Assembly (NCBI RefSeq): GCF_000027125.1
Contig: NC_017626.1
From: Escherichia coli 042
GTDB lineage: Bacteria; Pseudomonadota; Gammaproteobacteria; Enterobacterales; Enterobacteriaceae
Strand: one strand, 5' to 3'
DNA length: 64,000 nt
Positions 34,901-37,900 of this stretch are shown here, one piece after another. The stretch's first letter is position 1, and the number at the start of each line of letters is the position of its first letter. The position numbers are program-made.

Positions 34901-37900
34901 GGATAATGCATAATCATATTGCTTTCCAACCATTGGGCGTCGATCATAAATAGCATCCGCGACTACTTGCGCTACTTTTTGAGTGTATTTGGGTCTTTTT
35001 TTAACATCTAACGCTTTACCTATAAGTTCAACAACTTCATCACTCCCTGCAACTAAGGGAATATCAGCATAACGGCCTTGGATTTTAGTCCACTCTTCAC
35101 GAGTTTCAAGTCCAAGTCGAACAGCATATTGTCCAAAAGATTGATGTAATATACCTAAGATAATGACTTTACCATTTGTACGTGCTGCAGATTCAGCAAG
35201 CTCTTGGTAAAAATAAATATCATCGCCATTTCCTAAAGCTGATGCTTCAAGGAACTTACCTAGCTCGTCAATGATAAGCAAGGTACCATCTAACTTCGCT
35301 TCATCTGCAGCACTGCATATGTGTTTAATAAGTAATGATGCTGATTTTTTATAATCTTTATCACTACCACAAACATTATTCAGAGTTTGCGAAATTTGTT
35401 GGATTATGCTACCTCTGCGGCCAATAACTGGAAGTATTAACCATCCTTTTTTAACTTGGAATGCTTTATCAAAATCACTTTGTGAATCGACATTTAACAA
35501 TGACCTTGCTTTTTCACGTAGAGCTTTGTTAGGTGATAATGAACTTGCAAGAACTAACGCTAATGATGATTTCCCACTTCCATACGGACCAGTCCATGTG
35601 AAAGCTCGCTGTTGGCTATTCAGAACCTGCTTGGACATGTTTTCAAGAACGCTTTGTGCCGTGCCATTGCATACATATCCATCAAGCGCATCTTCGCGGC
35701 CAAGATCAGCATCAATACGGATGGAACGTTGGTATTGTCTCGCAATGCGAACCTGTTCTGAAAGAAGGTTTTTATTATGTTTAGTCATAAGCCTTTCCAA
35801 GCATGTTCAATTTAATTACTTCTGTTTCTGATGTTTTACGATGAACCTGGCGTAAACCAGCTGTATCAGTCCATATAAATGAACCTTCAGTTAACTCTTC
35901 TAATGCGAATAATCGTTCTGCAATAGAGTCTTCATCGAGCTTAAATACTCTACCCGGAGAACCGTCCCCATATGCAATTGTTTCGAAGGATAATGAGCTG
36001 AGATTTAGGGCCTTACGCTCCCAATAATCGATCAGAGCATAAGCAAATACACCATCAGACAAAGTAATCTTTGGACCTCGACGAAATGAAAAGTGTCCTT
36101 TTTTTTCTTCAGCTAGTAAACCTAATTCACCAAGCATAGGTTCGGCAAAGTCTTCAGGAGTGGTTCCACTCGACCGCGGTGCATAACTACGCAAACATGT
36201 CTCAATATCTCGAGAAAGTGTCATTGGTGATAGTTTTCTCCCAGGACAACATTGCGTAGCATAGTCAGCTAAAAGAGCCCGGAGGTCTTCTTGTGTAAAA
36301 GATGAAGAAACAACATGGTTAAATAACCAGTACCAAGTTGTCGAGCGTTCTCCTTTTCCTGAAAGCTTCCAATGGCTAAGCCATGCTGTCGAGGGATGCT
36401 CTGAATAAGGATCAAGCCCATGTTCGCTAAATATTTTAATAGCAAATTCTGTAAGTTTGAATTTACCATCCTCTTCTCGCATTACTTCACAGGCGAGTGC
36501 CCAATGCTTGATTGATGCGACCATGTTTTTGCCTACACCAAATTTGGCAATGGCCTCATCATTCGAAAAAACCGATTTGTCAATAGAACCATCCGGCGCT
36601 GCATAACTGCAGGTTTTTTTTAACCACATTTGTCTTAGTGGGAAGGTCTCGTGACCTGAAAAGTGAGCCATGACTTATCCTAATGCGATAACAACTTTGT
36701 ATAAGCTGATTGTACAGGAACTGGAGAGTTTCACCAGTGGCGGCTTTTGGACATCATTGGGGTGGCGTAGCGGTTTTTTTTTTATTTTTTTCGTTAAAAT
36801 ACATATTGTTAATTGTTTTTTATTGCGGAGGGGAACTGTCTATATCTTCTCATGCATCGGGATTTTTAACAGGCCTGAGCTGGCATGTTCTACCGTTTCA
36901 CACAGAAAGGAACAGTTAGTTTCAAACGGATACTTATCAATCAGTGGTGTGAGAAATGCTAAGAGTGGGAAACGCACTTAATTTTATGATTTCTTAGTGA
37001 CCAGTTTTTAACCATGAGCTAATCTTAAAATCTGATTTTTATCAATGAGTTAATGTTGATGTACTATGCGGCAATGAATGAAGTGTATTGCCATTCCGAA
37101 TTTTTGCTCATTTTTTAGCCATTTCCATACTTTTTTGCGTGAATATTTTATGAACAATGTTCCTTTCATAACTTATCTGTCTCAAATGATACGTTTGGAG
37201 TTTACAATTACTAAATATTTAATGTAAGTGGGAACAGCTATTTTTTGTTCATATTAGCTCCCAGCAGCAAAAGATGATGTAATTCATCCGGTGCAGAGAT
37301 AATATAGGAATGGATAATCTGGAGAGCGACTCTGCAGGCTGATATTGCGGTTTTGCGGCAAGTTTTTGGCATCCGCTTCTACGCCAAATACCTGAAGTAG
37401 GAATGGATGCGTTAGCAGCATACATCCGGATCTGCGCGGGGAATAGCCGGAAACGGCTATCCCTACCACAATAGCTAACTTTGTAATAGTGCCCTTTTAG
37501 GCTCATGTACTCTGACGTAATTCTATCTGGTAGTTGAATTGCACGATACGCGACTCTTCTGATTCATCATGATTATTATTCAATAGCCCAATCAGTAACT
37601 TACCCGTCTCTATCCCCATTTTTTTGTAGTCAATACGGATGGATGTCAAGGTTGGGTGTGTTTGATCGCAATTGTCTGAACCATCAAGACAAGCTACAGC
37701 GATATTTTCAGGAATTTTTAACAAACGCCGCTGGCACTCAAACATGATACCCAGCGCAATCTCTTCGTGGCTGCAAATCACAGCATCCAGCTCTGGTTGT
37801 CGCAGTAATATCTCGTTTAATGCGTAACGCCCCAATTGCAGACTTGCGGCATCCGGCATGGTGATAACAAGATCAGAGTTCTGGTAATGGCTCAACATTG

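What the first reader, a model, noticed from the sequence alone, without database searches (positions are those of the whole stretch)
36672..37502. 830-bp AT-rich apparently non-coding spacer with long homopolymer T-runs between the Ssp-like operon and the LacI/PTS module
Seen in sequence: no ORF of credible length or codon usage; contains a T9/T7 tract (ggtggcgtagcggtttttttttattttttt near 36770-36800) and several A/T-rich stretches. It lies upstream of the Ssp-like operon start (36671) and could hold its promoter, a phase-variable homopolymer tract, or a junction scar between two independently acquired modules.
Basis: seen in the sequence. Interest (0 to 1): 0.3.

Follow-up and report, generated by a model that had tools for sequence, protein, structure and literature searches.

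The report
Ssp promoter, operator and junction scar
This 831-base gap in an E. coli genomic island is non-coding: it carries the promoter of a DNA-sulfur-modification (Ssp) defence operon, with a conserved palindromic control site I found no description of, and a broken transposase-gene fragment marking where two acquired DNA modules were joined.

Summary
The spacer is real at 36672-37502, between the sspB start codon and the LacI stop codon, both on the minus strand. It is composite.

1. **Promoter and operator, 36672-36745.** This stretch holds the sspBCD promoter: a -10 TACAAT at 36714-36709 and a 19-bp palindrome ACTGGTGAAACTCTCCAGT at 36738-36720 covering the -35 and spacer region. CTGG-N9-CCAG sits at this position in 42 of 45 non-redundant sspB loci, down to 43% SspB identity. 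No regulator gene is co-conserved with it. I infer a repressor operator. SspB, the predicted DNA-recognition subunit, is the best candidate binder, because each half-site contains the Ssp target CCA.

2. **AT-rich flank, 36746-37274.** This belongs to the Ssp module (about 34% GC) and has no conserved function. It holds a T10-A-T7 tract, not T9/T7. Tract length is the only difference among the E. coli copies with this junction and ranges from 8 to 11 across all copies. The tract lies at -72 to -89, outside the core promoter.

3. **Junction, 37275-37278.** Four filler bases.

4. **IS110 relic, 37279-37375.** A 33-codon fragment of an IS110-family transposase gene.

5. **LacI 3' flank, 37376-37502.** Contains hairpins.

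The promoter and junction-scar readings are supported. Phase variation is not shown. The spacer itself is ordinary; the operator is the one new item.

The parts
35781..36671 (-). sspB (DUF4007, 296 aa), first gene of sspBCD. This is the gene the spacer's promoter serves.
   Evidence: Pfam DUF4007 E = 4.8e-90. PADLOC SspB E = 6.9e-115, SspC E = 0, SspD E = 1.4e-140. PDB SspB 6juf E = 1.8e-26.
36672..36702 (-). Predicted 31-nt 5' UTR with Shine-Dalgarno AGGA at 36681-36678. The predicted transcription start is A at about 36702.
   Evidence: Inferred from the position of the -10 box. 85% identical over the last 67 nt to Enterobacter sp. Ag1. Not mapped experimentally.
36709..36714 (-). -10 hexamer TACAAT of the sspBCD promoter (P1).
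   Evidence: Matches TATAAT at 5 of 6 positions. A TAnnnT hexamer matching TATAAT at 4 of 6 or better lies 3-15 nt after the palindrome in 32 of 42 related loci, typically TAGAAT, TAAAAT or TACAAT.
36720..36738 (.). 19-bp palindromic operator, ACTGGTGAAACTCTCCAGT when read on the minus strand. It spans about -36 to -18, over the -35 hexamer and spacer. Each half-site carries CCAG, which contains the Ssp target CCA.
   Evidence: CTGG-N9-CCAG is the most shared 4-mer inverted repeat in the 150 nt upstream of sspB: 42 of 45 non-redundant loci, against a maximum of 4 in shuffles. 31 of the 44 strict hits in 403 kb fall within 200 nt upstream of sspB. It is the only good site in the 64-kb window. 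It is kept down to 43% SspB identity and in a second E. coli Ssp type.
36774..36791 (+). T10-A-T7 tract (A7-T-A10 in the sspB sense), at about -72 to -89 from the predicted start. Its length is hypervariable.
   Evidence: Searches give the sequence. The long run is 8, 9, 10 or 11 and the short run 6 or 7 among the copies read. No terminator hairpin precedes it.
36784..36812 (-). Weak second promoter-like match, TTAACA-17 nt-AAAAAT, overlapping the tract. Of doubtful significance.
   Evidence: It is the only consensus-scan hit in 36500-37700, where shuffles give 3.8 hits on average. It is not conserved in Enterobacter sp. Ag1.
36792..37274 (.). AT-rich distal flank belonging to the Ssp cargo module. 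No conserved function was detected.
   Evidence: Present in only 9 of 5426 complete E. coli genomes, with no plasmid or phage match. The 603 nt upstream of sspB, of which this is the distal part, is 98.7-99.5% identical in four other assemblies, where the same module has a different upstream neighbour (AlpA) and a 1148-bp spacer. Not conserved in the closest other species beyond about 165 bp upstream of the ATG. No Rfam hit.
37275..37278 (.). Four filler bases (TGAT on the plus strand) at the junction, matching neither partner.
   Evidence: Junction alignments against L060-type loci and L002.
37279..37375 (-). Relic of an IS110-family transposase gene (ISEc21/IS5075-like), covering residues 133-165 of a 358-aa protein. 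Both ends are truncated.
   Evidence: RefSeq pseudogene annotation. tblastn gives 29 of 36 identities, E = 5e-13. About 93% nucleotide identity to IS110 transposase genes on 1200 plasmids. The relic runs on uninterrupted in the common E. coli arrangement.
37376..37502 (-). 3' flank of the LacI-family gene, with strong hairpins (37440-37463 with a GAAA loop; 37370-37410). Probably a transcript end or stabiliser. No U-tail.
   Evidence: The minus-strand fold of 37505-37360 is -49.5 kcal/mol, z = -2.56. Inverted repeat I6. Conserved with the LacI gene in about 1300 genomes.
37503..38534 (-). LacI-family regulator, the first gene of the LacI/PTS/deoxyribose-type module to the right of the junction.
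   Evidence: Pfam LacI and Peripla_BP domains. Annotation.

Best explanation
The spacer is composite, non-coding DNA made of two independently acquired pieces.

**Left piece (36672-37274).** This is the native upstream region of the sspBCD phosphorothioation operon. Its proximal 75 bp is a sigma-70 promoter. The -10 box is TACAAT at 36714-36709, the predicted start is near 36702, and the leader is 31 nt with an AGGA ribosome-binding site. A 19-bp palindrome, ACTGGTGAA-N-(T/C)TC(A/T)CCAGT at 36738-36720, covers the -35 and spacer region. A protein bound there would exclude RNA polymerase, so I read it as a repressor operator.

The palindrome travels with sspBCD through beta- and gammaproteobacteria and onto viral contigs. 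Only SspB, SspC and SspD are co-conserved with it. The binder is therefore most likely a product of the operon, giving negative autoregulation. SspB is the best candidate: it is predicted to be a triple-winged-helix target-recognition subunit, and each half-site carries the Ssp modification target 5'-CCA-3'.

The rest of the left piece is AT-rich flank. It holds a slippage-prone T10-A-T7 tract at -72 to -89. That tract may add curvature or nucleoid-protein binding, but it is not placed to act as an on/off switch.

**Right piece (37279-37502).** This is a 97-bp internal relic of an IS110-family transposase gene followed by the LacI gene's hairpin-rich 3' flank. Together they form the left edge of a LacI/PTS/deoxyribose module found in about 1300 E. 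coli genomes. The two pieces are joined by illegitimate recombination with four filler bases.

**Shown:** the anatomy, the junction, the relic, and the conservation and position of the palindrome and -10 box.
**Inferred:** the transcription start, repression, and the identity of the binder.
For: - **Module identity.** PADLOC and Pfam identify SspB, SspC and SspD.
- **Promoter and operator.** All 30 loci show ACTGG-N9-CCAGT (N10 in one), in most followed by TAnAAT.
- **Strict counts.** The strict pattern is found in 29 of 30 loci, and 31 of 44 hits in 403 kb are within 200 nt upstream of sspB. The remaining hits lack the flanking A/T.
- **Unbiased scan.** CTGG-N9-CCAG ranks top at 42 of 45 loci, against 4 or fewer in shuffles.
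- **Consensus.** The position matrix gives a perfect-palindrome consensus, ACTGGTGAA-N-TTCACCAGT.
- **Depth of conservation.** The motif is kept at 68-43% SspB identity on viral contigs. It occurs in duplicate around the -10 box in the E. coli sspBCD-DUF262 (SspE-type) locus, where SspB is 52.5% identical.
- **Specificity.** Two of only three exact matches to AACTGGTG-N5-CACCAGTT in the whole viral collection are at sspB promoters.
- **No separate regulator.** Only SspB, SspC and SspD cluster across the loci.
- **Not an RNA or DNA hairpin.** Inner variable positions pair no more often than independent columns would.
- **SspB as DNA reader.** It is described as a triple-wHTH recognition component (PMC10853773; PMC12839542). 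The Ssp target is 5'-CpsCA-3' (PMC9646914 abstract).
- **Junction.**
- **Relic.**
- **Tract polymorphism.**
Against: - No transcript or binding data exist for this locus.
- The -35 match is weak (about 3 of 6), and the consensus promoter scan did not call P1.
- The identity of the binder is inferred only from co-inheritance and from the CCA content of the half-sites. CCA is a common trinucleotide. SspB is reported as a nickase and target reader, not as a regulator (PMC8092258).
- The outer palindrome positions co-vary symmetrically. That fits a co-evolving protein, but shared descent would give the same pattern.
- The motif is absent or degenerate in the most distant DUF4007 loci at 31-38% identity.
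- Why two different elements are fused to the same nucleotide of the IS110 relic is unexplained.
Confidence: 0.7

Rival explanations
1. The palindrome is the operator of a host-encoded regulator, for example a GntR/FadR-type winged-helix protein or another widely conserved factor, and not of an Ssp protein. The sspBCD operon would then be wired into a host regulon.
For: The half-sites (A)CTGGT/ACCAG(T) resemble FadR/GntR-type half-sites (own knowledge). Many relatives also carry a host LexA box just upstream (13 of 45 loci; L058), so host control of ssp promoters does occur. No regulatory role has been reported for SspB in the papers read.
Against: The motif stays with sspB across beta- and gammaproteobacteria, MAGs and viral contigs. 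Only one good site exists in the 64-kb window. The spacing is N9, not the N5 between CTGG and CCAG in FadR sites. No regulator gene is co-conserved with it. In the viral collection, 2 of 3 exact hits are at sspB.
Confidence: 0.2
2. The T10-A-T7 tract is a contingency (phase-variation) element. Slippage changes its length and switches or tunes sspBCD expression.
For: Tract length is the only polymorphism among eight E. coli copies with this junction that were aligned (the ninth was not fetched). It ranges over T8-T11 and T6-T7 across all copies read. It is the longest homopolymer in the window. A weak promoter-like match, TTAACA-17-AAAAAT, overlaps it, so the A7 run would set that promoter's spacer.
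Against: The tract lies at -72 to -89 from the conserved promoter, not in its spacer or in an ORF. It is not conserved in the family: most other relatives have no such tract at this position, and many have a LexA box there instead, while Enterobacter sp. Ag1 has only a loosely similar A-run. Several variant assemblies carry frameshifted genes suggesting homopolymer sequencing errors. The overlapping promoter-like hit is within chance expectation.
Confidence: 0.12
3. The distal AT-rich 480 bp (36792-37274) encodes an unannotated small protein or small RNA belonging to the Ssp module.
For: The segment is kept at 98.7-100% identity wherever the module occurs, in two genomic contexts. ORFs of 39-103 aa exist. 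The native spacer is unusually long, at 1148 bp in L060-type loci.
Against: No credible Pfam hit for any ORF. No Rfam hit even at E <= 10. Not conserved in the nearest other species beyond about 165 bp. The copies are too similar for conservation to be informative. The 103-aa ORF runs antisense through the promoter and the T tract.
Confidence: 0.1
4. The T-run marks an intrinsic terminator, or the right part holds a riboswitch-like structured RNA (Moco-like).
For: The plus strand has a long T run. cmscan gives a Moco match of 20.5 bits, E = 0.067, at 37369-37478. The region downstream of LacI folds well, z = -2.56.
Against: No GC-rich hairpin precedes the T run, and its fold has z = -0.81. The Moco hit is far below the gathering score of 36. 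It lies antisense to the LacI gene with no molybdenum-related gene downstream, and nothing appears at the gathering threshold.
Confidence: 0.03

Closest known systems
DndB-controlled dnd promoter (Dnd phosphorothioation system)
   Same: A DNA-phosphorothioation operon whose transcription is held down by a system-encoded DNA-binding protein acting at its own promoter (He et al. 2015 and Xia et al. 2019, listed as references 20 and 21 of PMC10853773).
   Different: DndB is a dedicated regulator gene with no counterpart in sspBCD. Here no separate regulator is co-conserved, the motif is a 19-bp CTGG-N9-CCAG palindrome, and the proposed binder (SspB) is also the modification machinery's DNA reader. 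Binding has not been tested.
Controller (C-protein/C-box) and methyltransferase autoregulation in type II restriction-modification systems
   Same: A palindromic operator overlaps the promoter of a modification or defence operon and gives feedback on its own expression (own knowledge).
   Different: There is no C-protein homologue, and the operator sequence and spacing differ. The possible link between the operator and the modification target (CCA) is inferred, not shown.
BrxR-type regulators of BREX (BREX type 4 is homologous to Ssp)
   Same: A related defence machinery (BrxC is similar to SspC; BrxP is an SspD-SspB fusion) with a transcriptional regulator upstream (bioRxiv 10.1101/2024.06.03.597175).
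   Different: BrxR is a separate gene. No such gene is present in the window or conserved in the 45 loci.
FadR/GntR-family operators
   Same: The half-site (A)CTGGT / ACCAG(T) is read by winged-helix domains (own knowledge).
   Different: The spacing between CTGG and CCAG is N9 here against N5 in FadR sites. The motif is confined to sspB promoters.
LexA (SOS) boxes
   Same: Many relatives of this promoter carry CTGT-N8-ACAG 15-40 nt upstream of the palindrome (13 of 45 loci).
   Different: The window's own spacer has no LexA box. The A7-T-A10 tract sits at that position.
IS110-family insertion sequences (ISEc21, IS5075/IS4321)
   Same: 37279-37375 is 81% identical in amino acids and about 93% in nucleotides to the middle of their transposase genes.
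   Different: Only 33 codons remain. There are no catalytic domains, no element ends and no guide-RNA region. It is a scar, not an element.
Homopolymer contingency loci (promoter poly-T/poly-A tracts in Neisseria and Haemophilus)
   Same: A long A/T homopolymer upstream of a defence operon with length differences between isolates.
   Different: The tract is outside the -35/-10 spacer of the conserved promoter, and no expression effect is known.

Membership tests
Sigma-70 promoter | -10 hexamer close to TATAAT at a suitable distance from the gene | tested here: met
   TACAAT (5 of 6) lies 37 nt before the ATG. A hexamer matching at 4 of 6 or better is at the equivalent place in 32 of 42 relatives.
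Sigma-70 promoter | -35 hexamer close to TTGACA, 16-18 bp upstream | tested here: inconclusive
   The best candidate (TGGTGA) matches 3 of 6 and lies inside the palindrome. The consensus scan did not call this promoter.
Sigma-70 promoter | Mapped transcription start | not testable with these tools
   No transcript data. The start at about 36702 is predicted from the -10 box.
Repressor operator (autoregulated defence operon) | Dyad-symmetric site conserved in sequence and in position relative to the core promoter | tested here: met
   42 of 45 loci carry CTGG-N9-CCAG. The consensus is a perfect 19-bp palindrome. In most loci the site ends 5-8 nt before the -10 box.
Repressor operator (autoregulated defence operon) | Conservation is at sequence level, not a compensatory hairpin | tested here: met
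   The core never varies. Inner variable pairs are complementary no more often than expected from independent columns.
Repressor operator (autoregulated defence operon) | Binding by a product of the same operon | not testable with these tools
   Only indirect support: no other gene is co-conserved, SspB is predicted to be a triple-wHTH protein, and the half-sites contain CCA.
Phase-variable contingency tract | Repeat-length polymorphism between isolates | tested here: inconclusive
   T8-T11 and T6-T7 are seen, but several of those assemblies carry frameshifted genes.
Phase-variable contingency tract | Tract lies within an ORF or between -35 and -10, so that length sets the on/off state | tested here: not met
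   The tract is at -72 to -89 from the conserved promoter and in no supported ORF.
Intrinsic terminator | GC-rich stem-loop immediately before the T run | tested here: not met
   The scan finds none at 36774. Fold z = -0.81.
IS110-family insertion sequence | Full transposase (DEDD N-terminal domain plus C-terminal domain) with element ends | tested here: not met
   Only residues 133-165 are present, and both flanks are unrelated.
Rfam Moco riboswitch (RF01055) | Score at or above the gathering threshold (36 bits), upstream of a relevant gene | tested here: not met
   20.5 bits, on the strand antisense to LacI.
LexA/SOS-regulated promoter | CTGT-N8-ACAG box at the promoter | tested here: not met
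   None within 500 nt of the promoter in the window. Present in 13 of 45 relatives.
FadR/GntR-type operator | TGGT/ACCA half-sites with the short fixed spacing of that family | tested here: not met
   The half-sites are similar, but the spacing between CTGG and CCAG is 9. The FadR spacing is from own knowledge.

The most novel reading that the evidence does not exclude
SspB, the CCA-reading winged-helix subunit of the phosphorothioation machinery, also represses its own operon. It would do so by binding a palindrome built from two inverted CCA(G) targets over the -35 region. The phosphorothioation state of those two CCAs, together with LexA in the many relatives that carry an SOS box just upstream, would tune that binding. 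The system would then sense its own modification activity or DNA damage and adjust its expression: an epigenetic feedback loop for a backbone-modification defence system. The searchable literature did not turn up any Ssp regulator.
Probability: 0.3. Interest if true: 0.6.

Novelty: new member of a known kind. Interest (0 to 1): 0.35.

Why it matters
The spacer itself is an ordinary island junction with a promoter in it.

What could matter is the operator. How sspBCD expression is controlled appears not to have been described, although unbalanced phosphorothioation and restriction is toxic. A single 19-bp palindrome conserved across most of the SspB family gives a concrete site to test by EMSA, reporters and phosphorothioate mapping. 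It would also help people who clone 'native' Ssp cassettes for phage-resistant strains, because the control region is only about 75 bp.

The frequent LexA box next to the palindrome suggests that many Ssp systems respond to DNA damage.

The junction analysis shows that the LacI/PTS/deoxyribose module and the leuX defence cargo are exchanged independently. It also shows that the IS110 relic is a recurrent breakpoint.

Tried and rejected
- **Rfam.** Nothing in the spacer at the gathering threshold. At E <= 10 only a Moco-like hit (20.5 bits against 36) and a PK-repZ-like hit inside sspB. Both rejected.
- **Terminator reading of the T run.** Rejected.
- **Degraded gene in the left 600 bp.** No credible Pfam hit for the eight ORFs of 39 aa or more. 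No similarity to plasmids or phages. No similarity to the genes upstream of sspB in Enterobacter sp. Ag1.
- **attR copy of the leuX 3' end.** None in the window at 3 or fewer mismatches, and no long direct repeats.
- **LexA box in the window.** None.
- **Additional operator copies in the window,** for example before the HATPase gene pair. None.
- **Separate regulator gene conserved beside sspBCD.** None.
- **Most distant DUF4007 loci (L041, L055, L056).** No strict motif; L055 has a near-match with CCAA in place of CCAG.
- **Literature.** Four searches for an Ssp promoter, operator or SOS link found nothing relevant. Xiong et al. 2020 (Nat Microbiol) is not held, so prior description there cannot be excluded.
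- **Local repeats in the spacer.** Only short, chance-level families.
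Full report
**Setting**

The window is Escherichia coli DNA. The 831-bp region is 100% identical to three complete genomes: CV839-06, BEC1-S17-ESBL-09 and ETEC1747.

It lies in an island at tRNA-Leu(CAA) (25438-25522). The gene order is:
- a P4-type integrase (25722-26975);
- a 794-aa protein with two GHKL-ATPase domains;
- a 616-aa protein;
- on the minus strand, SspD (31624-32481), SspC (32456-35800) and SspB/DUF4007 (35781-36671);
- the spacer;
- a LacI-family gene (37503-38534, minus), an ascorbate-type PTS, and a ribokinase/FucP-like permease/aldose-1-epimerase/DeoR-family (deoxyribose-type) cluster.

**Check of the observation**

- GC content is 38.4% against 46.7% for the window. 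Only the left 607 bp is AT-rich (34.9%); the right 224 bp is 47.8%.
- The tract is T10-A-T7 at 36774-36791, not T9/T7. T10 is the longest homopolymer in the window.
- Thirteen ORFs of 20-103 aa overlap the spacer. The eight of 39 aa or more that I scanned have no credible Pfam match.
- One part is a decayed gene. Bases 37279-37375 encode, on the minus strand, RMPKTCRKTAISACRVALQIIHSYIISAPDEL. This matches residues 133-165 of a 358-aa IS110-family transposase, with 29 of 36 aligned residues identical and E = 5e-13. It is about 93% identical in nucleotides to such genes on 1200 plasmids and 88% identical to ISEc21.

**Two pieces and a junction**

- The left 602 bp occurs in only 9 of 5426 complete E. 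coli genomes, always in this arrangement. It is absent from the plasmid and phage collections.
- The right 224 bp occurs next to the same LacI gene in about 1300 genomes.
- In the common arrangement (L002 type, at least 514 records at 99% or better) the IS110 relic continues uninterrupted leftward past 37279 (…IISAPDELREPLRNMTRMQLIRT…) to a group II intron.
- In the window the relic stops at 37279.
- The identical SspB protein is also found in four other assemblies (L060, L063, L064, L066). There, the 603 bp upstream of sspB are 98.7-99.5% identical to the window as far as 37274. They then continue for another 546 bp of non-coding DNA to an AlpA-family gene.
- The Ssp-module sequence therefore ends at 37274. 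Bases 37275-37278 (TGAT) match neither partner. The LacI-module sequence starts at 37279.
- A long AT-rich non-coding stretch upstream of sspB is native to the cassette and was not created by the fusion.
- The LacI module has at least four left neighbours:
  - the longer relic with the intron (L002 type);
  - a P4-like satellite carrying Hachiman, whose primase gene is truncated at the same nucleotide of the relic (L011 type, 3 genomes);
  - a cdiBA island with the relic cut at 37301 (L071);
  - the Ssp element in this window.
- No copy of the leuX 3' end marks an attR site in the window.
- The 'junction scar' reading is correct. Why two unrelated elements meet the relic at one nucleotide is unexplained.

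**Promoter and operator**

I fetched 30 sspB loci from a species-representative genome collection, 16 from viral contigs, and a second E. coli Ssp type. I then compared the DNA upstream of sspB.

- Nucleotide similarity to the nearest other species (Enterobacter sp. Ag1, SspB 82% identical) is limited to the last 67 nt (85%) and a 40-nt A-rich patch.
- Within that stretch, nearly every locus has a palindrome ACTGG-N9-CCAGT, in most followed a few bases later by TAnAAT.
- The strict pattern CTGG-N9-CCAG is found within 200 nt upstream of sspB in 29 of 30 loci. Those sites account for 31 of the 44 hits in 403 kb, and the other hits lack the flanking A/T.
- A scan of all 4-mer inverted repeats with spacers of 0-14 nt ranks CTGG-N9-CCAG first, in 42 of 45 non-redundant upstream regions. 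Shuffled sequences give at most 4.
- The consensus is the perfect palindrome ACTGGTGAA-N-TTCACCAGT.
- The motif persists at 50%, 45% and 43% SspB identity. It occurs twice, on either side of the -10 box, in the E. coli sspBCD-DUF262 (SspE-type) locus. It fades at 38% identity and below.
- In the whole viral collection, the 16-specified-base form has three exact matches, two of them at sspB promoters.

In the window:

| Element | Coordinates (minus strand) | Position relative to predicted start |
|---|---|---|
| Palindrome | 36738-36720 | about -36 to -18 |
| -10 TACAAT | 36714-36709 | -12 to -7 |
| Predicted start | about 36702 | +1 |
| Shine-Dalgarno AGGA | 36681-36678 | within the 31-nt leader |

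This whole stretch is invariant among all the copies examined.

**Mechanism**

A dyad site covering the -35 hexamer and spacer is where repressors sit. I therefore read the palindrome as a repressor operator. This step is inferred.

The core never varies. The inner variable positions are complementary no more often than independent columns would be. That argues for a protein site and against an RNA or DNA hairpin.

Clustering of all ORFs across the loci finds only SspB, SspC and SspD shared. The binder is then either one of these proteins or a very widely conserved host factor.

SspB is described as a triple-winged-helix DNA-recognition subunit (PMC10853773; PMC12839542). It has solved structures, 6juf and 6lb9. 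The Ssp target is 5'-CpsCA-3' (PMC9646914), and the invariant part of each half-site is CCAG.

My best guess is therefore negative autoregulation by SspB or the SspBCD complex, at about 45% confidence for the identity of the binder. A host winged-helix regulator is the main rival. FadR-like half-sites are similar but have different spacing.

I found no description of an Ssp promoter, operator or regulator in four literature searches. The founding Ssp paper is not in the held library.

**The T tract**

In the sspB sense the tract is A7-T-A10 at -89 to -72.
- Among eight E. coli copies with this junction that I aligned (the window plus seven of the nine genomes), tract length is the only difference: T10 or T9, and T7 or T6. 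Two of the nine genomes were not fetched; one of them (ETEC1747) is 100% identical over the 831 bp but scores 99.7% over the sspB-plus-promoter query. I did not examine where that difference lies.
- Across all the copies read, the long run is 8, 9, 10 or 11.
- This fits slippage. But several of the variant assemblies have split genes, which suggests homopolymer sequencing error.
- The tract is outside the conserved core promoter and outside any supported ORF.
- It has no terminator hairpin.
- It is not conserved in the family. Many relatives have a LexA box at that place instead, and the window has none.
- A weak promoter-like match (TTAACA-17-AAAAAT, 36812-36784) overlaps the tract, but it is within chance expectation.
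- I rate a true phase switch at about 0.1. A role as curved, nucleoid-protein-binding upstream DNA is possible but untested.

**The right end**

Bases 37376-37502 are the LacI gene's 3' flank.
- On the minus strand this region folds into strong hairpins (-49.5 kcal/mol, z = -2.56). There is no U-tail.
- The plus-strand Moco-like cmscan hit (20.5 bits against a threshold of 36) is antisense to the LacI gene and is rejected.

**Verdict**

The finding is a real, mostly non-coding spacer of ordinary nature: a promoter region fused to an IS relic at a module junction.
- The phase-variation idea is unproven and poorly placed.
- The tract count was off by one.
- 97 bp is a pseudogene fragment.

The one thing of wider interest is the conserved CTGG-N9-CCAG operator of sspBCD promoters, often paired with a LexA box in relatives. 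It is a new, testable cis-element for a defence system whose regulation I found no description of.

Noticed in passing
L058:6700-6965, L059, and L030, L032, L035, L036, L039, L040, L043, L044, L048, L049, L052 (upstream of sspB): LexA-box-like CTGT-N8-ACAG sequences lie 15-40 nt upstream of the Ssp palindrome in 13 of 45 non-redundant sspB promoters. Those 13 are among only 19 strict hits in 505 kb. They include the E. coli sspBCD-DUF262 (SspE-type) locus (AACTGTATATTCAAACAGTA). Many Ssp operons therefore look SOS-controlled. The window's own promoter has no such box.
   Followed up: partly
window 37278/37279; L011:12005/12006; L002:4000/4001: Two unrelated elements are fused to exactly the same nucleotide of the IS110 relic: the Ssp element here and a P4-like satellite with Hachiman whose primase gene is truncated. 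In most E. coli the relic is continuous across that point. A third arrangement (APEC O2-211, cdiBA island) breaks it 22 bp further right, at 37301. The reason for the shared breakpoint is not explained.
   Followed up: partly
window 27244-31475 (+): Two genes lie between the integrase and sspD. One is a 794-aa protein with two GHKL ATPase domains and a weak BbrUII/HgiDII restriction-enzyme-like N-terminus. The other is a 616-aa protein with only a weak PF19192 receiver-like hit. No SspE or SspFGH is present, so this pair is a candidate restriction partner of SspBCD.
   Followed up: partly
L060:4853-6000 (also L063, L064, L066): In its other genomic context the same Ssp cassette has a 1148-bp AT-rich non-coding stretch between an AlpA-family gene and sspB. 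The unusually long upstream spacer is therefore native to the cassette.
   Followed up: partly
L016:5890-5950, L026:5900-5960, L054:2910-2990, L057:2870-2960, L058:6880-6960: Some sspB promoters carry two copies of the palindrome. In some the copies are in tandem upstream of the -10 box; in the E. coli sspBCD-DUF262 (SspE-type) locus they flank it.
   Followed up: no
window 1739-1854 (+), 19229-19423 (+): Rfam gathering-level hits elsewhere in the window: a magnesium riboswitch (RF01056, 125.8 bits) ahead of a 903-aa ORF, and Ysr276 (RF02850, 184.2 bits).
   Followed up: no
window 37369-37470: Three consecutive hairpins lie in the LacI 3' flank, conserved in about 1300 E. coli genomes. One is a 10-bp stem with a GAAA loop at 37440-37463. 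There is no U-tail, so the mode of termination is unclear.
   Followed up: partly
L005:1-500 (E. coli ETEC1731): In one of the nine E. coli genomes carrying this module, sspB is annotated as frameshifted. The module may be decaying in some lineages, or that assembly may have indel errors.
   Followed up: no
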